A stretch of DNA of 64,000 nucleotides from positions 32,001-96,000 of the IMG/VR virus record IMGVR_UViG_3300035150_000015, one strand, 5' to 3'. Origin of the DNA: a virus. Within the stretch, counting starts at the first letter, position 1; each line of letters opens with the position of its first letter. Below, piece by piece: positions 1,273-46,735 of the stretch. Under the pieces are notes generated by a model. It was not told the origin of the DNA, searched no databases, and saw nothing but the letters and a program-made list of their open reading frames with translations. The translations under genes and the position numbers were made by a program.

Positions 1273-2382
1273 TTAGGCTAGAGCTTCCGCAGCCGAGACC
1301 CGATTACGAACTCGGACCTTCACGGAAGTGGTAGTGGTAGCCGCACCCGGAATAAGGGAAGCCGGAACAACCACAGAGGTGGCAGAAATAGACCCGCCAG
1401 CTGCCACAATCTGAGACTGATTCAAAGATTTGGCCACATCACCAGTGAATTGGACAACGGTATCCAGGAGCTCGCTGTTTCCGAGACCTGTGCCAGCAAT
1501 GGTGACATCCCCAGTCGTTGGGGAGTCCAAAGTAGCTGAAGAAATGGTCGGCAAAGTCACGGACATGGCAGAAGCGCCATCGTCCTGAACCACTTGAATG
1601 GCCGCCCCGGCAACTAGACCCTGACGGGAGTCAGGGTTGAAGGTAGCAGAACGAAGAGAAGCGATGTATCCCACGAGGTAGCTATCCAGAGCCACGGTAG
1701 TCTCGAGGAATTGCGGGGCAATGGCATCGGCTAAAGCTTCGTGAGTTCCACGTGTCGAGGGGATAAAGGCAAAAGCTGTGGAGCTCGTTCCAGACCCGAC
1801 TGTGTTCATCGTGGTGACAGAGACATCTAGTGTTCCGCCAACAGGATTCAAGTCAGTGATGATGGTCGTGGCCGAGGGCATGGCCCGAACGATAGCCGCC
1901 GTACCAAGGCCCAAATCAGGTAATGCCGTAGAACCCCCAACCTCACTATCGATACCCACATAAGAATTCACTCCGTGAGGACCTTCAAGGGCCAAGGTGT
2001 CACTGGTAGTGCCTTCACGCGCAGTGATGCCGGTGCCTACCAAAGCCGCGTTAACGGCCGCTGCCAGGTCAATGATGTTGGTATAGGTGGCGGCTGCAAT
2101 CGTCACCGAAGTATAGCTAGCTGCTGCCGATGTCCGCACCTTCAGGACATCGTTTGAGCTACCCGTGATAGTGATATTGAAGGTCAGGGCACTACCCTGA
2201 GCCACAGCACCTGCCCCAACTGAGGAATCGGACAAAACCATCTCGATTTCAGTAGTGGTGGGACGGGAAATGTAAACTTCCTGGCCAGGAGGTTCTGTCG
2301 AGAAGTTTCTCCGAGAGACAGGCTCCAAGTCGGCCAGGAGGACTGGTCCGGGAAGGTCGGCTCGAATAATTCCAACACGCAT
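1273..2382 (-). CDS. virion structural protein with one C-terminal Ig/IPT-like repeat
   Basis: 369 aa, Thr/Ser/Gly rich; the C-terminus (ATLDSPTTGDVTIAG...VVVPASLIPG) matches the repeat unit of 2775..4763. Confidence 0.65.
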   Translation of the reverse strand: MRVGIIRADLPGPVLLADLEPVSRRNFSTEPPGQEVYISRPTTTEIEMVLSDSSVGAGAVAQGSALTFNITITGSSNDVLKVRTSAAASYTSVTIAAATYTNIIDLAAAVNAALVGTGITAREGTTSDTLALEGPHGVNSYVGIDSEVGGSTALPDLGLGTAAIVRAMPSATTIITDLNPVGGTLDVSVTTMNTVGSGTSSTAFAFIPSTRGTHEALADAIAPQFLETTVALDSYLVGYIASLRSATFNPDSRQGLVAGAAIQVVQDDGASAMSVTLPTISSATLDSPTTGDVTIAGTGLGNSELLDTVVQFTGDVAKSLNQSQIVAAGGSISATSVVVPASLIPGAATTTTSVKVRVRNRVSAAEALA

Positions 2383-17526: not shown

Positions 17527-20013
17527 CTAGGTCTGCGATCTTTTCCGGAAATAGCTTTCGTCCTTAGCCAATCCAGACCTGAGTAGTTTTTCCCTCCTTC
17601 TGTGCTCCGGGCAACAGTACGTCATAGAATTCTTAGGAGAAGTGTCCGTAAAATCAACTCCACAGTAACGATACCCACACTTTTTGACCCTGCCCTCAAG
17701 ATCCTTAGCCTCCCTACAGGACGGACAATACTTGAAGTTGCCTAATTTCTCAGTTTCCCATTGAGACCCACACAGAAAACAGGTAAACTTTCTGACCCCA
17801 GAGACAGGGTGCTTTTCCCTTAAAACCCGTCGCCTATATCGAGCATAACAGGCAGCACTGTGAAAGTTAGCCGACTCAGTGGCCGACTTGAACTCAATCC
17901 CGCACCCCTTGCATACACGAAAACTTCCTTTCGGAGTCAAACAACCTTTACATAGCCCGGAAGTCAGTGACTTGAACGGGGCCACCTTTCCACAAGAAGA
18001 GCACGATGAGATCCTCTGGCTGCCCCCATAAGAGGTGTTTGGCAAAGAATAGCAGACACCTTTCACCCAGCACAGAACCGATTCAGAACGGGATTCTGTA
18101 CCAGGGCTAGGCAAGTAATAGAGTAACTTCTCCGCCCTCCCCAAACCCAACTCAGCCACCAGTCGAAGAGTATCCTCGACCAACGGGTAGTCACGATCCC
18201 AAAGTCTGAAATCGTCTACATTGACTACAAGCCATCCCCCGGACTTGAGAGCCAACACACTTTTCTCTAAGACCTTTCTCCAAAAGAGGTTCAACCAATC
18301 TTCGTAAGTACAGTACTCTTCCCGACACCAATAAGGAGGTGAGGTCAGGACCATGTCCACATTCTCAGGAAATGTGGCTTCCTCGGACATCTCACACCGA
18401 ATGTCAACAGTACCTTTCAAGTCTGGAAGGTACTGCCGGACCCAATCATTCAAACGAAGCAACCCAGCATGAGTCTCCGTAGAAGGGTCATACCCTACGT
18501 AGTTCGCTTGAGAGTTAGATAGCAATGTACCCAAAAGACGGCCACCATACCCAGCACAAGGGTCTAAGACTGTGCCCCCCGTACAACAGAACCTGTCCAC
18601 CAGAGCCTTTGCTGCCGAAGGCCTGAAATTGTATACCCCGGATCTTTTCCAAAGCCTTAGAGCAGCCCGCATTCTAGCAGGGTTAGGAACATCCCCAGAT
18701 TTCAGTATGAACCGAATCAGCTCTCTGAGTTGAAGGGGGTCCGAGAATAACTCTCGGGGGCTAGGGGCTCTGAAACTACTAGCCGACCAAATATGCTTCA
18801 TGATTCCCTGACAAATACCTTGGCCGGCCTGTCTGGCTTTGATTGCGCCATCTTGGATGACATGAGAAGGGTCAAGATTAAGTAGAACAGTGAGCTCTTC
18901 CGGACGGGGGACATGATAGGGAAATCCCGTTTCCGACCAAAACTTGAAGAATGCTTCCACGAGTACCTCTTTACCAGAGTCGTCTAATGTAGGCCATTGT
19001 TTCACTTCAGCTACCAAGCCACTAGGTACCAAGGACTCATTTGTACGCACTGGCTGACGAGCAATAGCCCCTCTCCAATACTTAGCCGGGAACTTGTAGA
19101 GCATGTCGGGAGGGGCGTGCTCCCGAATCATCTTGAAAAAGGCGTCGGCTGAACGGGCACGGATCCCTAGTCTCTGACAAGTAAGGCATACAGGACATTT
19201 GGAATAGACATCCAAATTGAATCGGTTTCCTACTATACTCAGTACAGACCTGAGTTCTTTTTCATCTACATTCCCCAAAGCTATTGTAGGCAAACCATCT
19301 CCCAAATGACCGTCGTCGAAGTACCAGTAAGCAAGGGACCTTGGAGTGAGCTCCTTCAGGATGGACTCCGGAAAGATCCGAACCCCCTCAGGATAAAAAA
19401 TGGATCGCATCTTACGCAACCACTCATGCTGAATTGTCTGAAAGCCAAACCCAAACGTCAGACGACCGTTCTTCATCTCCTTCTCCGCATACCGAATGGG
19501 GAGAGCGTGAGGAGAAAGAAGCTTATGTAGATGCCTGAGGTAGTCTATCTGCTCCTGGTAATGAGACACCTTGAAGACCCCCCTCTCCAATAAATGACCA
19601 TCCCCAAGAAGGACCCCTATGAAAGCCTCTTTCTGCTCCTCAGTCACCTCCTCATGAGAAGTTGACCGGTCACTCTTAGTCAAGGCAGGAATCCCGAATT
19701 CTTTCAGCTTAACTGAAATCGTTGGTTTGCTCACCCCGTAAAGAGCCCCTATCTCCCTCTGACCGAGAGAAGAGTACAAATCAGCCAACTTAGCAGGGGT
19801 TAGATCATCCAGGACTGGTTGACCCGGACGTTTGGCATCCCTTCTCTGTCTCAAAGAAATCGAAGGAATCCCGTACTTCCTTCGAAAGTAAGAAACGGCC
19901 ACATCGGACATACCCAAAAGGACTCCTATCTCAGCATCCGTATGCTCACGATACAGCTCTTCCAGGCGCTCTTTGGTCAGCCCTACTTCTTTAGCTCTGT
20001 TCCTACGTGCCAT
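17527..20013 (-). CDS. HTH-LAGLIDADG endonuclease-DNA amino-methyltransferase-Zn-ribbon fusion
   Basis: two N-terminal HTH-like segments; FIGVLLGDG and LAYWYFDDG LAGLIDADG helices; LDPCAGYGGR SAM-binding motif; TSPPY catalytic motif; multiple C-terminal CxxC. Confidence 0.8.
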   Translation of the reverse strand: MARRNRAKEVGLTKERLEELYREHTDAEIGVLLGMSDVAVSYFRRKYGIPSISLRQRRDAKRPGQPVLDDLTPAKLADLYSSLGQREIGALYGVSKPTISVKLKEFGIPALTKSDRSTSHEEVTEEQKEAFIGVLLGDGHLLERGVFKVSHYQEQIDYLRHLHKLLSPHALPIRYAEKEMKNGRLTFGFGFQTIQHEWLRKMRSIFYPEGVRIFPESILKELTPRSLAYWYFDDGHLGDGLPTIALGNVDEKELRSVLSIVGNRFNLDVYSKCPVCLTCQRLGIRARSADAFFKMIREHAPPDMLYKFPAKYWRGAIARQPVRTNESLVPSGLVAEVKQWPTLDDSGKEVLVEAFFKFWSETGFPYHVPRPEELTVLLNLDPSHVIQDGAIKARQAGQGICQGIMKHIWSASSFRAPSPRELFSDPLQLRELIRFILKSGDVPNPARMRAALRLWKRSGVYNFRPSAAKALVDRFCCTGGTVLDPCAGYGGRLLGTLLSNSQANYVGYDPSTETHAGLLRLNDWVRQYLPDLKGTVDIRCEMSEEATFPENVDMVLTSPPYWCREEYCTYEDWLNLFWRKVLEKSVLALKSGGWLVVNVDDFRLWDRDYPLVEDTLRLVAELGLGRAEKLLYYLPSPGTESRSESVLCWVKGVCYSLPNTSYGGSQRISSCSSCGKVAPFKSLTSGLCKGCLTPKGSFRVCKGCGIEFKSATESANFHSAACYARYRRRVLREKHPVSGVRKFTCFLCGSQWETEKLGNFKYCPSCREAKDLEGRVKKCGYRYCGVDFTDTSPKNSMTYCCPEHRRREKLLRSGLAKDESYFRKRSQT

Positions 20014-34256: not shown

Positions 34257-37200
34257 CTATCTCAAAAAAGGACGACGTCTGGGGACTCTTCTATCTCCAA
34301 TGTACCCTCTTTGCCTGTCTCGAATGCGCTGATATCGTTCGGAAGTCATAGAAGCGGAAGCCCGAGGCAGATGTAAGCCTCCTCCGGCCACATGTTTTTG
34401 GTTGACCAAGATATTCATTGAGAGCCATGTAGCACGGACAAGGGAGTCACTCAAGTCGTCATGATTACCTCTGACCTGGGGAGCCTGCACCAAAACAATG
34501 TTCTTAGAAAGCTTACGGGCTTCTAGACTCAACAACTCCGTAATGAGTGAGGAGTGGCGGTCTTGGCCCTCTTTGGCCCTTTCTGGAATTGGGTAATCAT
34601 AGAGCCGTAGGCTACCATTCAGAATGAAACTCTTGGCCGCTTGGTAAATCTTGCTGTTCTGGTCCCGAGTGAAAAACTCCGACCGGAACTGCTTAAGCCC
34701 CTTCTTGTGCAAGGCTTGTTCCAGAGGAATGCCGTTCCACTGGTCAAAGAGACCTGCAGTGATATGGAATCTCTTAGCTAGAGCCTCAATCCAATTGGCA
34801 ATCTCACCAAAGTCCAAACGCTCTACTGTTTCCAGGGTCTTAGCATATCCCGTGGTATATTCTCCGTGGAGATGGGGGTTGGTTTCCTTCCAATCAACCC
34901 CAGCATACCATACCTCATGGTAATCCAAAGAGATGTAATCTGATTCAGCATGGGTGATGGATACTGCTGTGCCGTCCTCCACGAGCCCAACGTCAATCCC
35001 CATCTGGTAAGGCTTACGAGGAGTCGGTCTAATGGTCGGACGACGGCCTACATCAATGCAAGCCTCGAGATCTTTCTTTCTCTCCAACCAACCCTTGGCC
35101 TGGTCACTGAACCGAGCACCGTGCTCAGTCGCGAACACAACCGGGTCGTCGTGGTACTTCTCCTTGTAGTAGGAACTGGGGATCGTAGGATTGATTTCCC
35201 ACGTAGGAGCCTGAATCGCCAAGATGTTAGCGGCTGCCGGGCCCCCGTGCATAGCTGTGCTGAACTTCTTGAAAAAGAGGCCTGACCGCCCTAAGGGGGA
35301 CGAAATAAGAATGATCCTAGACTCTACTGGGGCAATATCTCCTGTCTCCTTGTCCACAGCAGGACGCCCGGTGTCAGAATCCTTCCGAGAAAAGGCGGCA
35401 GAAGACGGGGTAACAGCAGCATAAATCTCGTCAGCCGAACTGTTGCCCTTGTCTTGGAAGTGGGCCACCTCGTCGAGAATAATTACAATGTTACCGGAAC
35501 CGCGAAGGCCCTTGGCGATACAGCTCTTGAATGTGACTCTCAGAGAGGCCTTGCCGTTCAGAGAGACAAACTTGCCATTCTCATGGTGGACGTTGGGCCC
35601 AAACTTCTCGATATCATAAGGGGTTCGGAAGTTGACGTGGCTTAAGGTATTGTTGGCAATGTACTGCTTGAAATAGTCGCACTTAGCCAAATGTGTGGTA
35701 ACCTCACCAAATAGGAGGCCGGCCTGTTCTTTGTCCGTAGCGACGCTAATAACTTGGATTCGGTTGCCATTCGGAAGCCCATAATACTCCTGAGGATTGT
35801 ATAGGTTCAGAAGCCGATATACCTCGTAGGAGGCAAAGATGCCAGATAGGGTCGTATTATGGTTGACTACTCCATTGGCTACAAAAGATTCCCCTTCTGG
35901 AACAGTGAGATCGTAAACCTGATGCTCTCCACGCTCTATGGATTGGACAGGATCATAGAAATAGTCCAATTCCACTAATTCTCGAAAGTGGGATGCAGCC
36001 TCCGAAGCCCCCAGGTCGATTGCAACAGATAGGGCCTTATCTAATCGCGAGTAGGACAGGTCTTCTCCAGAGGAAGGCTTGCATGTGTTGCCGAAAGCCT
36101 TCCTCAAATGACTGCGGCCCCAACCCTTTTCACCTCTAGCAGGGTTACGTTTAGGCACAGCCTCGAGTAATTCTCGAATGTGGGAATACTGATGAGGAAT
36201 ACTCTCCGTATCAGACTTCCCCTCCTGAGCATTCTTCAACGCAGCCTGCAAAGGCCGCTGCTTCTTATTAGAGTCGAACCCCACCAGTTCAGCAAAAATC
36301 CTCCTTGAACGAACACCCTTTAGACTAAGAATGGCATAATATCGTTCAGTTTCGGGATTCCACTTTCTAGCCACATTGGAAACTATCCCCAAATTAAGGA
36401 GCAAAACCTGAACATCAGAGGCAAGCTCAAAACTAGCCGTAGAAAGCGTAATGTGCCTTCCGCCTCCTTCTGCCGAACCATCGGTCTCAAATAAGCCTCT
36501 CAGAAAAGCACACACCACACTCTTAGGTGACCTTAGGATAGACCAAGGTACTCTTTTATCGTACCTGCCACACCCCCAGGACCATCCCAAGTCATGAAGA
36601 AATTGTCGCATCCCCACACTGGGGAATTCTAGTCTACCTGTATTTTTAGTGCGCTTGTCCTTCTGAACCCTACAAGAGCCAAACAATCTATCAAACAAGT
36701 CCCTCAAGTAGAGCCAAGTCTCATCATGCTCCACAGTAACAGCCACACCCTGAGTGTGGCCCCAAGACCCATCCCCCACCAAATAACCCAGAAGGTTTCC
36801 CCATGCTTCATCTAACTGATCCGGAAAAACGAGGTCTTTACGCCCACGGTCGTTGTGAAAAGGCTTAGTATCCAGTTGTTCAGAAGCCCAAAGGTCAGTG
36901 CCTCTATGAATTGCCAAGAAATCACCGGGACGGATTTCGTCCAAGTATCGCCAGTCAACGACCCCCTCAGCAGTCATGACTCTAACTCGATGATTGGCCG
37001 TTCCCCCAATCTCGTATCCAGACTTCGTCTTCAGTGTATATGTAGGCTTTACACCCCCATTGTAGAAATGGGATGAACGGGACTTTGCCGAACCCTCTTG
37101 AGCCACCCCAATCTCTAATTCACTGAATTCCTCTTCAGAGGCAATACCCAGCTCTTCAATAGGGAAAATTCCTCGGTCTGTGAGAACTAGAGTACCCTCC

Positions 37201-37601
37201 CGGTTACACTTACCGGCCCGCCGGCCTATGGCCAGAACGAGTTCCCGTCGGTCATGGTCCTGTTCCCCAATATTGCACCGGCCCTCATTATGAAGGTAGC
37301 TAAGATATTCCTTCTCAGTGAGCTCGTAGAGGATCTTAGTGTTGAACATGTCCGGAATCTGGATCCTCAGATTGGGGTCCTCCGGAAGAAAGTCGTCCAG
37401 CTCCAAGTTGTAGTACAGCTTGACTAGAAATTTCTGCGCTGGAAAGAGGGTCATGTTCAGACCCCAGGGCTGCTCTATGTATTCTAGAACATTGAAAATC
37501 TTGGGTTTGGCCGTTGCCACGGCCTCTTTCCCATAAGCAGATTTGACTCGTTGAGCGGTCTTCCGGACCAGCTCAGCAGCGGTCATTGGTTTGCTGGCCA
37601 A
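34257..37601 (-). CDS. terL: terminase large subunit with intein
   Basis: Walker A GRRAGK|TT, Walker B IILDE, ISSP coupling motif, RNase H-like GIDVG and HDD..D nuclease motifs. Confidence 0.92.
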   Translation of the reverse strand: MASKPMTAAELVRKTAQRVKSAYGKEAVATAKPKIFNVLEYIEQPWGLNMTLFPAQKFLVKLYYNLELDDFLPEDPNLRIQIPDMFNTKILYELTEKEYLSYLHNEGRCNIGEQDHDRRELVLAIGRRAGKCNREGTLVLTDRGIFPIEELGIASEEEFSELEIGVAQEGSAKSRSSHFYNGGVKPTYTLKTKSGYEIGGTANHRVRVMTAEGVVDWRYLDEIRPGDFLAIHRGTDLWASEQLDTKPFHNDRGRKDLVFPDQLDEAWGNLLGYLVGDGSWGHTQGVAVTVEHDETWLYLRDLFDRLFGSCRVQKDKRTKNTGRLEFPSVGMRQFLHDLGWSWGCGRYDKRVPWSILRSPKSVVCAFLRGLFETDGSAEGGGRHITLSTASFELASDVQVLLLNLGIVSNVARKWNPETERYYAILSLKGVRSRRIFAELVGFDSNKKQRPLQAALKNAQEGKSDTESIPHQYSHIRELLEAVPKRNPARGEKGWGRSHLRKAFGNTCKPSSGEDLSYSRLDKALSVAIDLGASEAASHFRELVELDYFYDPVQSIERGEHQVYDLTVPEGESFVANGVVNHNTTLSGIFASYEVYRLLNLYNPQEYYGLPNGNRIQVISVATDKEQAGLLFGEVTTHLAKCDYFKQYIANNTLSHVNFRTPYDIEKFGPNVHHENGKFVSLNGKASLRVTFKSCIAKGLRGSGNIVIILDEVAHFQDKGNSSADEIYAAVTPSSAAFSRKDSDTGRPAVDKETGDIAPVESRIILISSPLGRSGLFFKKFSTAMHGGPAAANILAIQAPTWEINPTIPSSYYKEKYHDDPVVFATEHGARFSDQAKGWLERKKDLEACIDVGRRPTIRPTPRKPYQMGIDVGLVEDGTAVSITHAESDYISLDYHEVWYAGVDWKETNPHLHGEYTTGYAKTLETVERLDFGEIANWIEALAKRFHITAGLFDQWNGIPLEQALHKKGLKQFRSEFFTRDQNSKIYQAAKSFILNGSLRLYDYPIPERAKEGQDRHSSLITELLSLEARKLSKNIVLVQAPQVRGNHDDLSDSLVRATWLSMNILVNQKHVAGGGLHLPRASASMTSERYQRIRDRQRGYIGDRRVPRRRPFLR
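35856..37208 (-). mobile_element. intein (451 aa) with LAGLIDADG domain in the terminase Walker A
   Basis: starts CNREGTLV, ends VVNHN followed by T; TANH block B; LLGYLVGDG and FLRGLFETDG motifs. Confidence 0.93.
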
Positions 37602-43115: not shown

Positions 43116-44201
43116 CTACGACCAGTTCTGCCCCCTCCCCACCTTACCAATCAAGGATACGCACACCCCAAACTCCTCTGATAGCTCCTTGTGAGAGGCC
43201 CCCTCAGCCAATCTCTGCCTAACCAGAACCACCTTTTTCCTGCTGAGCTTGGCCGTCCGTTTGGCCTGATTAATCTCTGAGGGGCTCCCCCACTCCCCGT
43301 TTCGTATCCATCCTCTAACCGCACACTCCTCACATTCTCCACACGAGTAACTCCCCTCCAAATCGGAACGAGAAAACTTGTAGCCGGCTGGTTTTCCCCC
43401 CACATCCTCCAAGAAGGCTTCAAAATTGTCCCTCCATCGCGAACACATTGTAATTCCAATGGCACCGTATCGAGCGTACCCATCGTGTTTCGTATTGAAG
43501 CATCGAGTCTTGATGCTCCCCCAGGTCTTGTATTCTGGAGATCCCACACCCCCGTGCTTATAGTTTTTATGCTCCGGGCCCGTCTTACAGGACCTCCTGT
43601 TGTGGGTCTGTTGAAGCTTGGAGGCCCATCTCACATTCCCCGGCTCATACCCTTTCTCGTTGTCTATTCGATCCAGGCTGTGCTGAGGAGTAGGACGAGG
43701 ACCCACATCATGAAAAAAGACAGTGAAGCCATCCACCCACTCCTGACAAACCGTGATTCCCCTCCCTCCCCAATTAGGATAGTTTGAGCTATTTGGGTTG
43801 AGACATCGATCTTTCATTAAGGCCCAAGCATTGTATTCAGGGGTATGAATTAAACCGTGCTTGAAATTGGTCTTCCTACCCGGATTCCTAACCGGTCTCA
43901 ATCTATTGGCCGTTCCGTGAGGCCTACGGTTATTGGCCTGCTCTTTCCAAGTGGCCCATTTCACATTCCCCGGCCTGTAACCATCATCTACGTCTATCCT
44001 GTCTAAACTATGACGAGGAGTAGGCCTTGGACCCACATAGGACAAAAAAGCCTCAAAGTCATCAATCCAAGCCCCATACACCCCAATACCCCTCCCCCCA
44101 TAGTTCAGGTAAGCCCTATGGTCAGGATTTATACAGCGAGCCTTCAGTTGTTGCCAACACTTGTACTCAGGAGTCTTACTAAGCCCGTGTTTTAGGTACA
44201 T
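43116..44201 (-). CDS. free-standing HNH-type homing endonuclease-like protein with three tandem domains and a C-terminal HTH
   Basis: KHG...TPEY..W...K.RC.N....Y..YGGRGI.V...W...F..F...VG.RP...SLDRID...GY.PGNV.WA repeated three times (third copy degenerate). Confidence 0.8.
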   Translation of the reverse strand: MYLKHGLSKTPEYKCWQQLKARCINPDHRAYLNYGGRGIGVYGAWIDDFEAFLSYVGPRPTPRHSLDRIDVDDGYRPGNVKWATWKEQANNRRPHGTANRLRPVRNPGRKTNFKHGLIHTPEYNAWALMKDRCLNPNSSNYPNWGGRGITVCQEWVDGFTVFFHDVGPRPTPQHSLDRIDNEKGYEPGNVRWASKLQQTHNRRSCKTGPEHKNYKHGGVGSPEYKTWGSIKTRCFNTKHDGYARYGAIGITMCSRWRDNFEAFLEDVGGKPAGYKFSRSDLEGSYSCGECEECAVRGWIRNGEWGSPSEINQAKRTAKLSRKKVVLVRQRLAEGASHKELSEEFGVCVSLIGKVGRGQNWS

Positions 44202-44258: not shown

Positions 44259-44909
44259 TTAAAAACACTCGTCTCCTCCCCGGTCACTCCACTGAGGAAG
44301 CTTCACTTCTCGAAGAATGTTGAAGTTTTTGCCAGCAATAGCGCTGAAAACCTTGTGATATGGCTCAAACTCAGGGTCCTTGGCTGCAGCAGCCTCCAGA
44401 ATCCTGACGGCCTTGAAAAACCTATGGCGGACCTGACCTTGTGTCCGGTCAAGACTTTTTGCGACCTCGCTCTGGCAAGTGGTATCCCACATACCCACCA
44501 GAATGTCTACGTCTACAGGTTTGGGGAAAACTTTTGGTAAATCCCTCCTGAGATCCTCCTCAGTCACCTGGGGAATCGACAACAAGAACTTGATTCGCTG
44601 TATCCCCCTGTCTAGTCTGTAGGAAATAGCTGCTTGAGTAACGCCGAATATGACCGCAATGTCCGCCTGCCGTTTCTTACGGAGGAAATACAATGTGATC
44701 AAATCAGCCTCGCGTTCAGGAATCCTATCCAAGAGCGGCCTGATTCTTGTCTCGTAGTCGCTGCCTGTGAACAGAGCTACATCTTCGGTAGAAAGCTCCT
44801 CGGTCTCCTCATACTCAGAGTCTTCCTCTTCACCGGGTTCTCCCGGAGTATAGGAAAAACGATTGGATAGTTCAGTCGGGTCGACGGGAATAACGTACCC
44901 TTGACTCAT
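44259..44909 (-). CDS. tandem sigma-70 region-4-like HTH protein
   Basis: LDRIPEREADLITLYF...QADIA..FGVTQAAIS.RL.RG, then a second Q.EVAK.L..TQ.QV..R..KA; no region 2 recognisable. Confidence 0.7.
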   Translation of the reverse strand: MSQGYVIPVDPTELSNRFSYTPGEPGEEEDSEYEETEELSTEDVALFTGSDYETRIRPLLDRIPEREADLITLYFLRKKRQADIAVIFGVTQAAISYRLDRGIQRIKFLLSIPQVTEEDLRRDLPKVFPKPVDVDILVGMWDTTCQSEVAKSLDRTQGQVRHRFFKAVRILEAAAAKDPEFEPYHKVFSAIAGKNFNILREVKLPQWSDRGGDECF

Positions 44910-46735
44910 TGAGCCTCGCTGTGTCTGAAAAAGGTGGTCAAAACTGACTTAGGGCTGACTTCTATCTGTTTCAAGAGAGATACGACTCCCTCAGGACTAA
45001 CGTCTGGTCCCTTGATTGAGACAGTAACATCCTCAAGGGTCATCAGCCTCAAATTCAATCTTACCTGAGGTTCGGCCAAACGCAACCTTTCGTACTGATT
45101 TCTCGTAAGGCCGGCCAGCCCAGAATTGTACACACCGTCCACAGACCCGTGGGCCTTCACCAGGTCCCTCAAGATCTTCTTCGGCACCCTAGGAACCCCC
45201 GGAAGATTGTCAGAAGTGTCCCCAAAGAAGGCTCTGAGTTGGCATATGTCCTCAGGGAACACGCCCCAATCCTTCCGGACTCCATCAGGGTCGTACAGAA
45301 TTTCTTTGCGGGACCCGGCCTTGGGGACCAACAGGCTAGTGTTTTTCGACACTAATTGGAGGAAGTCACGATCATTGGAGAAAATCAAATTCTGTTGACC
45401 CTGTAGCTCATTATGCACCAAGGAAGCCAGAACATCATCCGCCTCATTACCGGGGCTCTCGGCCTGACGGACACCCAACAGCGGTAAAACTCGGTAGAGC
45501 AAGTCCAGTTGTTCGTCTGTTCCTTCCCGGTGAGTACGATTAGCCTTGTACTCTCCGTAAATAGATCTTCGTTTGGAGCCCCCGCGATCTCGATCCCACG
45601 CCACGTAGAATACGGCTTCTGGGTACCTCTTCTTCAGGGCACCCAGTGAGTTCAGAAAGCCCACCACCATTCCAGTGAAACGCCCGTGAGAATCCCTAAG
45701 CTCATTCAAGCCAGGGGCCAGCCAGCACCGGTAGGCAAGGTTATAACCATCGATAAGGATATTCTGTATCATATTTTTCTTCCCACTATAACGCACTACT
45801 TGATACTCCAAACGGTCCAAGCTCTCCCCCAAACTACGAATCTTGGCCAATACGGCCTCAAACCAAGTAAGTTCAGACAGCTTGTCCTCGATCTCTTCGG
45901 GGCTCACAGCATCAGACAAGAAACGGCTCAAGGACATAGTCTCTTCCCACAAGGGGCCCGCCCTGCCCATCAACCTAGTTGTCTCTGATACTCTGACCCA
46001 CGTCTTCTGCAAGGTCAGAGACTTATGGTCCAATGACCCATTGAACAAGGCCACTATCGGCCACCAGGTCAAACCCTGGTCGCACCAAGTATACAGCTCA
46101 TGGTACTTGTCATATGCCTTGAGAAGGGGCTCCACAGGTGAGTCCCAGGACAGGATAGGAGCAGCTTTCTGTGTCCACACCTTCAGAGCATTCAACTTAG
46201 AGAGAGCAGGTGAAAGTGGAGCTCTATCAACCACTCTCAAGAACGACCGAGGAAGAGTGATCAAGCTCTCTTTGCTCCGAAGACACACATATACCTGAAC
46301 CCTCCCCTGTTCTGGAATTTCCTCAATTACAGTAGCCTCAATATTCCTGTAAGGGCCGCTGGTAACCAAGACTGTGTCACCCACCCCAATGCCCTGATCG
46401 ACCTCCGCCTCAACCTGACGCCGCATCTTCTCCACTTCAGAAGTCGTGATGGTCGCCAGTTGTCGTTGCTTACCGGCCCCCGGTTCTGTGAGGACTGATT
46501 GAATGTAACGAGTGTTTTCTAGACGCAAGTAAGCCGAATCGGTATGCTCGTAGCGAACAAAAGCATACCCCTCCACCAGATAATGCACCACCCGGTCATC
46601 CCCTATCTGGGTCACGACGGCTGGAACAAACACCTCCGCATCCTTAACGGTGGCCCGAACCACCTGCCGAATCAGGTCTGGGTCCTCGCCCTCACTGCGT
46701 GAGGCCAACTCTAAAACTATCCACTTGTCGGTCAT
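44906..46735 (-). CDS. NusG (NGN+KOW)-5'-3' exonuclease/flap endonuclease fusion
   Basis: N-terminal W.VL...VFVP...GYAFV and VGDTV.VTSGPY..I.A.V KOW; C-terminal LIDG.N, AWD, YKANR, EADD, DRD and GD.SDN.PGV FEN motifs, all in one ORF. Confidence 0.85.
   Translation of the reverse strand: MTDKWIVLELASRSEGEDPDLIRQVVRATVKDAEVFVPAVVTQIGDDRVVHYLVEGYAFVRYEHTDSAYLRLENTRYIQSVLTEPGAGKQRQLATITTSEVEKMRRQVEAEVDQGIGVGDTVLVTSGPYRNIEATVIEEIPEQGRVQVYVCLRSKESLITLPRSFLRVVDRAPLSPALSKLNALKVWTQKAAPILSWDSPVEPLLKAYDKYHELYTWCDQGLTWWPIVALFNGSLDHKSLTLQKTWVRVSETTRLMGRAGPLWEETMSLSRFLSDAVSPEEIEDKLSELTWFEAVLAKIRSLGESLDRLEYQVVRYSGKKNMIQNILIDGYNLAYRCWLAPGLNELRDSHGRFTGMVVGFLNSLGALKKRYPEAVFYVAWDRDRGGSKRRSIYGEYKANRTHREGTDEQLDLLYRVLPLLGVRQAESPGNEADDVLASLVHNELQGQQNLIFSNDRDFLQLVSKNTSLLVPKAGSRKEILYDPDGVRKDWGVFPEDICQLRAFFGDTSDNLPGVPRVPKKILRDLVKAHGSVDGVYNSGLAGLTRNQYERLRLAEPQVRLNLRLMTLEDVTVSIKGPDVSPEGVVSLLKQIEVSPKSVLTTFFRHSEAQ

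What the first reader, a model, noticed from the sequence alone, without database searches (positions are those of the whole stretch)
44906..46735. NusG fused to an apparently active 5'-3' exonuclease/flap endonuclease: a possible transcription-coupled nuclease
Seen: one ORF carries a complete NGN+KOW NusG (~aa 1-168), a ~150-aa helical linker and a FEN domain with all catalytic acidic motifs (IDG, WD, EADD, DRD, GD.SD). The H3TH loop is altered (GVPRVPKK). Known: NusG/Spt5 binds elongating RNA polymerase; in eukaryotes Spt5 cooperates with the 5'-3' nuclease Xrn2 in torpedo termination; Pol I-type FENs remove RNA primers and flaps. Inference: the phage may tether a 5' nuclease to host RNAP for torpedo-like termination, R-loop removal or replication-coupled late transcription. 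The gene sits between dnaX and a sigma-4 protein at the replication-to-morphogenesis boundary. I do not recall this fusion being described. An internal ATG at 45772, preceded by GGGAAG and TATAGT, could also produce the FEN domain alone.
Basis: partly seen in the sequence, partly recalled or inferred. Interest (0 to 1): 0.85.

Follow-up and report, generated by a model that had tools for sequence, protein, structure and literature searches.

The report
Huge-phage NusG fused to flap nuclease
An uncultured huge phage joins a copy of NusG, the factor that rides on RNA polymerase, to its only DNA flap nuclease in one gene that probably also makes the nuclease alone; relatives keep the two parts fused or as neighbours, which points to an undescribed but testable link between phage transcription and DNA replication.

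Summary
Window 44906-46735 (minus strand) is one 609-aa ORF made of a NusG-type NGN+KOW module, a variable four-helix spacer, and a Pol I-type 5'-3' exonuclease/FEN with every catalytic carboxylate.

It is not an assembly error. I collected 173 fused homologues. Domain identity is KOW 68%, FEN 59-71%, NGN 52% and spacer 25%.

Relatives show a series of forms: NusG-like alone, NusG|FEN as adjacent genes without a spacer, NusG+spacer|FEN, and the fusion. The gene order is always clamp loader - NusG(/FEN) - tandem sigma-region-4 protein, at the boundary between replication and head genes.

Complete relatives (411 and 447 kb) have no detectable RNA polymerase, no RNase H, one family-A DNA polymerase without a 5' nuclease, and exactly one FEN, which is this one.

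In 20 of 27 fused genes the codon at that spot is ATG, GTG or TTG, and SD-like purines are enriched upstream, so free FEN is probably made too.

RNA polymerase binding, and any torpedo, R-loop or late-transcription role, remain inference.

I found no paper on this fusion. JGI auto-annotation names both halves. This scan has already reported the same fusion in at least 14 other genomes.

The parts
44906..46735 (-). Whole NusG-spacer-FEN gene, 609 aa (P0001), stop at 44906-44908
46400..46735 (-). NGN domain, aa 1-112 (W5, P38, G56-Y57-x-F59 invariant in the family)
46211..46399 (-). KOW domain plus conserved PRSFL..V.RAPLSP stretch, aa 113-175; 68% mean pairwise identity, second only to the FEN C-terminal subdomain (71%); the tip loop reads LRSK where NusG has IFGR
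45776..46210 (-). Variable helical spacer, aa 176-320 (four long helices; 25% identity; 140-182 aa in relatives; no informative fold match)
45770..45790 (-). Candidate internal start: TATAGT (45785-45790), GGGAAG (45779-45784), ATG (45770-45772, M322); would yield free FEN of 288 aa
45260..45775 (-). FEN N-terminal (PIN-like) subdomain, aa 321-492, with D329, D381, E431/D433/D434, D455/D457 and the Y396-K397-A-N-R400 arch
45011..45259 (-). FEN C-terminal H3TH subdomain, aa 493-575, with D506/D509 and the variant loop PGVPRVPKK (aa 512-520, nt 45176-45202)
44927..44953 (-). Conserved C-terminal motif P-x-x-[ILV]-L-x-x-F-F (aa 595-603)
46732..48132 (-). Upstream DnaX-like clamp loader, ATGA-coupled to the fusion gene
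44259..44909 (-). Downstream tandem sigma-70 region-4 protein, ATGA-coupled
51411..52697 (-). Phage beta-type sliding clamp (divergent; missed by Pfam)

Best explanation
This is a genuine bifunctional gene of a lineage of uncultured huge phages (about 0.4-0.5 Mb).

The N-terminal NGN+KOW module is a divergent NusG paralogue. By analogy with every characterised NGN domain, it docks on the beta' clamp helices and beta gate loop of the host RNA polymerase. There it would act as a phage-specific elongation or antitermination factor, working with the tandem sigma-region-4 protein encoded next to it, at the entry to the late (head) genes.

A variable helical spacer of about 145 aa ties it to the phage's only Pol I-type flap endonuclease. 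That nuclease is the counterpart of the 5' nuclease domain missing from the phage's family-A DNA polymerase.

The gene probably yields two products. One is free FEN from an internal start, for Okazaki-primer and flap removal at the replisome. The other is the full-length protein, which places the same nuclease on transcribing RNAP.

The most likely job of the tethered form is to cut RNA:DNA hybrids or flaps where transcription and replication share the phage template. Examples are R-loops and transcripts taken over as primers.

Shown: the domains, their conservation, the gene order, the sole-FEN status, and the start-codon pattern.

Inferred: RNAP binding, the two products, and the substrate.
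For: Domains:
- NGN+KOW homology.
- FEN homology with all carboxylates and the arch aligned to Pol I.

Conservation:
- More than 120 full-length homologues.
- 173 of the 270 collected proteins are fused.
- The functional domains are 52-71% identical against 25% for the spacer.
- The window sits in well-supported, essentially all-fused clades in both the NGN-KOW tree and the FEN tree.

Linkage kept when unfused: NusG-like and FEN are adjacent, often overlapping genes in L014-L018 and about 18 metagenome loci. In the L010/P0157 clade the arrangement is NusG+spacer | FEN.

The order clamp loader - NusG/FEN - sigma4 is conserved in all loci examined.

A sigma70-NusG-like fusion exists (P0182).

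Complete relatives have one FEN, no RNase H, and PolA elsewhere. They have no RNAP beta or beta' and no T7-type RNAP.

Internal start: the codon is ATG, GTG or TTG in 20 of 27 fused genes. Val at that position is GTG in 7 of 8 cases, against 31% GTG usage among Val codons. An SD-like motif precedes 14 of 23 junction start codons, against 12% of other internal start-capable codons.

All NGN domains studied bind the clamp helices and gate loop (PMC7819879, read).
Against: - No binding data exist and the host is unknown.
- The NGN and KOW Pfam scores are just under the curated cut-offs. All NCBIfam subfamily scores are far under theirs.
- The KOW tip loop differs from NusG's, so its partner is unknown.
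- Covalent linkage is dispensable in split clades. One related 485-kb phage has the NusG-like gene and no FEN at all. The NusG module therefore has a job of its own, and the fusion could be mere co-expression.
- The spacer is poorly conserved.
- Most members have a non-canonical H3TH loop, which may change DNA binding.
- The start-codon statistics rest on related sequences. Purine-rich Gly/Lys codons may partly reflect protein constraints.
Confidence: 0.5

Rival explanations
1. Co-expression only. The NusG-like factor and the FEN work independently, in transcription and in replication. They were joined because they were adjacent, translationally coupled genes. The internal start supplies the working FEN, and the tether has no mechanistic meaning.
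For: - Split forms are common in relatives.
- A relative has NusG-like alone and no FEN.
- The spacer is variable in sequence and length.
- An internal start is likely.
Against: - The fused state persists across 173 proteins down to about 40% identity, in one clade of both trees.
- When split, the order NusG then FEN and the tight coupling are always kept.
- An added spacer of about 145 aa is maintained as helices rather than lost.
Confidence: 0.2
2. Adaptor for replication-coupled late transcription, of the T4 or Mu type. The FEN end recognises nicks or flaps, or binds the phage beta clamp loaded by the adjacent clamp loader. The NusG end holds RNAP. The sigma-region-4 protein plays a gp33-like role, so that late (head) genes are read only from replicating DNA.
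For: - The gene lies between the clamp loader and the sigma-r4 protein, directly upstream of the terminase, portal and protease genes.
- The phage encodes a beta-type clamp.
- An [ILVM]xxFF tail motif, similar to a PIP box or clamp-binding motif, is present in 109 of 161 fused proteins against 1% of control windows.
- Sliding clamps do activate late transcription in T4 and Mu (PMC2988020, PMC7892883, PMC12867686; abstracts seen).
Against: - No sigma region-2 or gp55-like gene was found in the complete relatives.
- The tail motif sits in a high-confidence helix of the FEN fold and may be structural.
- All catalytic residues are invariant, which a pure adaptor would not need.
- NusG-type factors act in elongation, not at promoters.
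Confidence: 0.15
3. Torpedo-like termination or nascent-RNA decay. The RNAP-bound nuclease degrades the transcript 5' to 3' and dislodges RNAP, as with Xrn2/Rat1, RNase J1 or archaeal FttA with Spt5.
For: The architecture would place a 5' nuclease next to the RNA exit region through KOW and the spacer. Archaeal FttA works on the elongation complex together with Spt4/5 (PMC11616081, abstract).
Against: - The nuclease is a Pol I-type FEN whose nearest structures are DNA flap endonucleases.
- From general knowledge, this family needs a duplex junction and is not known to digest free single-stranded, triphosphorylated RNA.
- It is the only FEN in the genome, so a replication role is required.
Confidence: 0.08
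4. Artefact: two genes joined by a sequencing or assembly error or a lost stop codon.
For: Some relatives have two genes.
Against: There is one uninterrupted frame in the window. The same holds in 173 independent proteins from many samples, with conserved spacer helices.
Confidence: 0.01

Closest known systems
NusG and its specialised paralogues (RfaH, LoaP, UpxY, ActX/TaA)
   Same: Two-domain NGN+KOW architecture and fold. The profile matches T. maritima NusG over both domains. A beta-barrel KOW is predicted. Like the paralogues, it is encoded inside the element or operon it presumably serves.
   Different: - It scores 21-40 bits against NCBIfam models whose cut-offs are 100-145 bits, so it belongs to none of the named subfamilies.
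- The KOW tip loop is LRSK instead of IFGR.
- It carries a C-terminal helical domain of about 145 aa and a whole nuclease. Neither the review I read (PMC7819879) nor any paper I found reports this.
Pol I 5' nuclease domain and stand-alone FENs (M. smegmatis FenA 6c33, plastid exonuclease 9l55, E. coli ExoIX, T5 D15, T4 RNase H)
   Same: Both Pfam subdomains, all metal-binding carboxylates and the YKxxR arch are present. TM about 0.8 to FenA and the plastid enzyme. It is the only such enzyme in the genome, as in T4 and T5.
   Different: It is attached to a transcription factor instead of a polymerase or nothing. In the window and most relatives, the glycine-rich H3TH loop is replaced by the basic P-R-V-P-K-K.
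Archaeal FttA (aCPSF1) with Spt4/Spt5 on the elongation complex; eukaryotic Xrn2/Rat1; B. subtilis RNase J1
   Same: A nuclease is brought to the transcribing polymerase in partnership with the NusG/Spt5 factor (PMC11616081).
   Different: Those nucleases are beta-CASP or Xrn ribonucleases acting on free nascent RNA, and they bind non-covalently. Here the nuclease is a DNA/hybrid flap nuclease and the link is covalent.
T4 gp45-gp33-gp55 and phage Mu clamp-dependent late transcription
   Same: Clamp loader, clamp, a sigma-region-4-like protein and an RNAP-binding factor are encoded together at the entry to the late genes.
   Different: T4 and Mu use no NusG-type factor and no nuclease. No gp55-like region-2 protein was found here.

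Membership tests
NusG/Spt5 superfamily | NGN domain (alpha/beta fold, Pfam PF02357) | tested here: met
   Pfam gives 20.8 bits, just under the 22.2 cut-off. The family profile hits NusG 2lq8 at 5.8e-10 and 2xhc at 1e-7. Foldseek hits NusG chains at about 1e-9. The model shows the fold at aa 4-112.
NusG/Spt5 superfamily | KOW domain following the NGN | tested here: met
   Pfam KOW at 118-148, 19.8 bits against a 22.3 cut-off. The profile aligns to NusG KOW 1nz9 (6.8e-6) and to Spt5 KOWs. A five-strand barrel is predicted.
NusG/Spt5 superfamily | Binding to RNAP clamp helices and gate loop | not testable with these tools
   The host and its RNAP are unknown. This rests only on analogy from PMC7819879.
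Named NusG subfamilies (housekeeping NusG, RfaH, LoaP, UpxY) | Score above the NCBIfam curated cut-off | tested here: not met
   nusG 40.1 bits (cut-off 135.7), LoaP 30.2 (125), UpxY 25.3 (100), RfaH 21.4 (144.5).
Pol I-type 5'-3' exonuclease / FEN (PF02739+PF01367) | Both subdomains above the Pfam gathering scores | tested here: met
   110.2 bits (cut-off 34.3) and 43.3 bits (cut-off 40).
Pol I-type 5'-3' exonuclease / FEN (PF02739+PF01367) | Full set of metal-binding carboxylates and the Y-K-x-x-R arch | tested here: met
   D329, D381, E431, D433, D434, D455, D457, D506 and D509 align to the Taq and Msm Pol I residues. They are invariant or nearly so in 32 homologues.
Pol I-type 5'-3' exonuclease / FEN (PF02739+PF01367) | Canonical glycine-rich H3TH loop (G-h-G-x-K-T-A) | tested here: not met
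   The window has PRVPKKIL. Fused relatives L007 and L009 keep GFGLKTA and GFGPKMA.
Torpedo termination nucleases (Xrn2/Rat1, RNase J1, FttA) | Xrn-family or beta-CASP 5'-3' exoribonuclease domain | tested here: not met
   Only FEN/PIN-like domains were found by Pfam, the PDB profile and fold search.
T4-type clamp-activated late transcription | Phage clamp and clamp loader plus a region-4-like co-activator | tested here: met
   Clamp loader 46732-48132, beta clamp 51411-52697, tandem sigma-r4 protein 44259-44909.
T4-type clamp-activated late transcription | Region-2-like promoter specificity factor (gp55 type) | tested here: inconclusive
   No PF04542 hit in the two complete relatives. A very divergent gp55-like protein would be missed.
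T4-type clamp-activated late transcription | Clamp-binding motif on the RNAP-bound factor | tested here: inconclusive
   The conserved [ILVM]xxFF tail fits the pattern, but it lies in a confidently folded helix.

The most novel reading that the evidence does not exclude
Huge phages place a structure-specific flap/hybrid nuclease directly on the host's elongating RNA polymerase through a dedicated NusG paralogue. This would be a physical coupling of transcription and replication that has not been described. It could clear R-loops co-transcriptionally, or convert transcripts into or out of replication primers, on a 0.4-0.5 Mb genome that is replicated and transcribed at the same time. A nested start would make free nuclease for the replisome from the same gene.
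Probability: 0.35. Interest if true: 0.8.

Novelty: new variant of a known kind. Interest (0 to 1): 0.62.

Why it matters
NusG/Spt5 is the only transcription factor family conserved in all life. Its known partners are the ribosome, Rho and RNA-processing factors, not a DNA replication nuclease.

A covalent NusG-FEN in more than 170 phage proteins is a natural 'Rosetta stone'. It suggests that RNA polymerase and Okazaki/R-loop processing are physically linked in these phages.

The idea can be tested with two recombinant proteins and a purified RNAP. It bears on how very large phage genomes handle transcription-replication conflicts and time their late genes. The protein could also serve as an RNAP-targeted nuclease tool.

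The caveat is that all functional claims are still inferences. The find is also not new to this scan, which has reported it repeatedly.

Tried and rejected
- Complex prediction of the phage beta clamp (A3) with the C-terminal 44 residues (A1 566-609) gave no verdict (score 0.00). It counts neither for nor against binding.
- Spacer fold: the spacer was folded alone (pLDDT 74). VIA wide search gave a best Z of 6.1, only to generic coiled coils. The Atlas gave TM below 0.5 to four-helix bundles. No informative fold came out of either.
- The genome-contig scan with the single protein found no cellular homologue.
- INPHARED phages hold no full-length match. They hold one NusG-like-only relative, LR745208.
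- The search for related loci failed with stand-alone NusG-like proteins or their alignment, so the neighbours of the 73 'NusG only' proteins could not be checked. Some of these, and some of the 23 'NusG+tail' proteins, may be cut at contig ends.
There is therefore no expression or read evidence.
- A candidate clamp from a weak PF02768 hit in G001 maps to window 1273-2382, in a region with repeated domains. I dropped it in favour of 51411-52697.
- The consensus promoter scan did not list the TATAGT before the internal ATG as a promoter-like site. I read that signal as a possible ribosome-binding context, not a promoter.
- Literature searches found no description of the fusion.
Full report
OBSERVATION. 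The ORF is on the minus strand (46735 to 44906) and encodes 609 residues.

Pfam places 5_3_exonuc_N at 326-491 (1e-31) and 5_3_exonuc at 493-573 (5e-11), both above threshold. NusG NGN at 4-105 and KOW at 118-148 are just under threshold. The N-terminal assignment becomes significant with better tests:
- PHROG 6386 'transcription antiterminator', 1.6e-9.
- NCBIfam nusG, 3e-10.
- A profile of 16 family members against T. maritima NusG 2lq8, 5.8e-10 across both domains.
- Foldseek hits to NusG chains at about 1e-9.

An AlphaFold2 model (pLDDT 83) shows NGN at 4-112, a beta-barrel KOW at 121-170, four long helices at 175-316, and a FEN fold at 325-602.

The FEN aligns residue for residue with the Taq and M. 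smegmatis Pol I 5' nucleases. All carboxylates are present (D329, D381, E431, D433, D434, D455, D457, D506, D509), as is the YKANR arch. The H3TH loop reads GVPRVPKK where Taq has GVKGIGEK. The only correction is the strand.

NOT AN ARTEFACT. A word-indexed search returned more than 120 full-length homologues (45-76% identity, 590-650 aa). JGI's pipeline names some of them '5'-3' exonuclease/transcription antitermination factor NusG'. An exhaustive search with residues 1-325 found 290 relatives. Of the 270 proteins collected, 173 carry both halves.

Within 32 aligned members the mean pairwise identity is 68% for KOW, 71% and 59% for the two FEN subdomains, and 52% for NGN. It is only 25% for the spacer, whose length varies from 140 to 182 aa. 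All three functional modules are thus under purifying selection. The spacer is conserved only as helices.

A SERIES OF ARCHITECTURES. Relatives from IMG/VR, metagenomes and GenBank show the following forms.
(a) NusG-like alone between the clamp loader and the sigma-r4 gene, in the 485-kb uncultured phage LR745208. This record has no PF02739 FEN anywhere.
(b) NusG-like ending in a stop right after KOW, followed within 0-15 nt by a separate FEN gene in another frame, with no spacer. This occurs in L014-L018 and in many metagenome loci.
(c) NusG-like plus spacer ending in a conserved basic tail, with an overlapping separate FEN gene. This occurs in the complete 447-kb genome behind L010 and in P0157, P0164 and P0166.
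(d) The fusion, as in the window.
(e) One protein in which a sigma-70 (regions 2 and 4) precedes the NusG-like module (P0182).

In trees of the NGN-KOW module and of the FEN domain, the window falls in well-supported clades that are essentially all fused. Form (c) is a supported clade nested among the fused and tailed forms. Form (b) lies in a separate clade. The trees are unrooted and some unfused proteins may be fragments, so I do not claim a direction of change. What is firm is that the NusG-to-FEN gene order and coupling are kept across about 25-75% identity, whether fused or not.

CONTEXT. The order (primase) - metallopeptidase - clamp loader - NusG/FEN - tandem sigma-r4 protein - two unknown genes is conserved in every locus long enough to show it. 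In the window both junctions are ATGA overlaps.

The window holds the following, all on the same strand.
- Upstream: a divergent beta clamp, RecA, SbcCD-like genes, a RuvC-like resolvase, a helicase and an NAD-dependent ligase.
- Downstream: terminase, portal and prohead protease.
The gene pair NusG-FEN and sigma-r4 therefore sits exactly where transcription passes from replication genes into head genes.

The window's contig is 104 kb and is estimated 22% complete. Two complete relatives with terminal repeats (411 and 447 kb) have:
- no RNAP beta' or beta domain and no T7-type RNAP;
- no RNase H;
- one family-A DNA polymerase far away;
- exactly one FEN, which is this gene.
The polymerase therefore lacks its 5' nuclease, and the fused FEN is the lineage's only candidate for primer and flap removal.

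INTERNAL START. Met322 is not conserved as an amino acid, but the codon is conserved as a start codon. In 27 fused genes for which I have DNA, the codon two positions before the conserved Q-N-[VI]-[LI]-[VI]-D-G is ATG in 11, GTG in 7 and TTG in 2.

Eight genes have Val at that position, and seven of them use GTG, although GTG is only 31% of Val codons in these genes. An SD-like core of at least 4 nt precedes 14 of 23 junction starts, against 12% of 992 other internal start-capable codons.

The sequences are related, and the junction is rich in Gly and Lys, so this is suggestive and not proof. It agrees with form (c), where FEN is a separate gene starting at the same place. It also agrees with an earlier follow-up in this scan (e1-5772330).

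MECHANISM. Shown:
- a NusG-family module, a competent-looking FEN, and their conserved linkage;
- sole-FEN status;
- no phage RNAP detected;
- position next to a sigma-r4 protein at the late-gene boundary.

Established knowledge: all NGN domains studied bind the clamp helices and gate loop of RNAP (PMC7819879). Pol I-type FENs cut 5' flaps and remove RNA from RNA:DNA hybrids.

Inference: the full-length protein rides on host RNAP as a phage-specific elongation or antitermination factor and carries the nuclease with it, while free FEN serves the replisome. I consider hybrid and flap processing at sites where RNAP and the replisome share the template to be the most likely role of the tethered nuclease (about 0.5 for the whole picture).

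Rivals:
- Co-expression without mechanistic coupling (0.2).
- A T4/Mu-like adaptor for replication-coupled late transcription (0.15). This is supported by the gene order and by an [ILVM]xxFF tail in 109 of 161 fused proteins. It is weakened because that tail is a confidently folded helix, and because a pure adaptor would not need invariant catalytic residues.
- Torpedo termination (0.08). This is disfavoured because the nuclease is not a ribonuclease of the Xrn or beta-CASP type.

COMPARISON AND NOVELTY. The protein is a member of the NusG superfamily, but of none of its named subfamilies. It is also a member of the Pol I-type FEN family, with a variant H3TH loop. That loop is a lineage trait rather than a consequence of fusion.

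The nearest functional analogy is the non-covalent partnership of archaeal FttA with Spt4/5 (PMC11616081). The nearest contextual analogy is clamp-dependent late transcription in T4 and Mu (PMC2988020, PMC7892883, PMC12867686).

Five literature searches found no description of a NusG-FEN fusion. Automatic annotation already names both halves. This scan has reported the same fusion in at least 14 other genomes, with concordant follow-ups.

- the NusG-only and sigma-NusG relatives;
- the conserved split-after-spacer clade;
- the codon-level test of the nested start;
- the PolA-without-5'-nuclease observation;
- the beta clamp.

I rate it a new variant of a known kind, with interest 0.62.

LIMITS. 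The complex prediction gave no verdict. The spacer has no informative fold match. Two tools that could have given neighbours or expression data were unavailable.

Noticed in passing
window 51411-52697 (-): A 428-aa protein that Pfam does not recognise is a beta-type sliding clamp. Evidence: phrog_947 at 3.5e-4, PDB 1vpk at 2e-3, and Atlas structure TM 0.79-0.83 to the bacterial beta clamp. It lies between the two halves of the split SbcC/Rad50-like genes.
   Followed up: partly
L003/L004 5290-7980, L005 5237-7681, L007 5221-7548 (clamp loader genes of relatives): In these relatives the clamp-loader match is interrupted by about 1.3 kb after residue 48, near the Walker A site. The window's gene is continuous. 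This is probably an intein or an intron with a homing endonuclease.
   Followed up: no
window 43116-44201 (-): An HNH endonuclease gene with three repeated HNH-type matches sits between the sigma-r4 gene and the next conserved gene. It is present in L007 and L008, fragmentary in L005, and absent in most relatives. It looks like a mobile homing endonuclease insertion.
   Followed up: partly
protein P0182 (from the search of protein representatives): A 541-aa protein joins a sigma-70 (regions 2 and 4) to a NusG-like module of this phage family (residues 326-493). It is a single sequence and its context is unknown.
   Followed up: partly
L032 = LR745208.1 414365-426862: A 485-kb uncultured phage keeps clamp loader - NusG-like - sigma-r4 but has no Pol I-type FEN anywhere in the record. 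It must remove primers some other way.
   Followed up: partly
window 44259-44909 (-) and homologues: The tandem sigma-r4 protein ends in a strongly conserved tail, KKFNILREVKLPQW..RGGD.C[FVE]. This hints at a conserved partner or metal site.
   Followed up: no
window 17527-20013 (-) and 34257-37601 (-): The 828-aa ORF contains a LAGLIDADG homing-endonuclease match (residues 122-310), consistent with an intein. The terminase large subunit is unusually long (1114 aa), and its terminase matches cover only residues 549-971.
   Followed up: no
L055, L067, L074 (metagenome loci): In some split relatives, 186-235 codon-equivalents separate the NusG-like gene from the FEN gene. This may be an extra gene, or a free-standing version of the spacer.
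   Followed up: no
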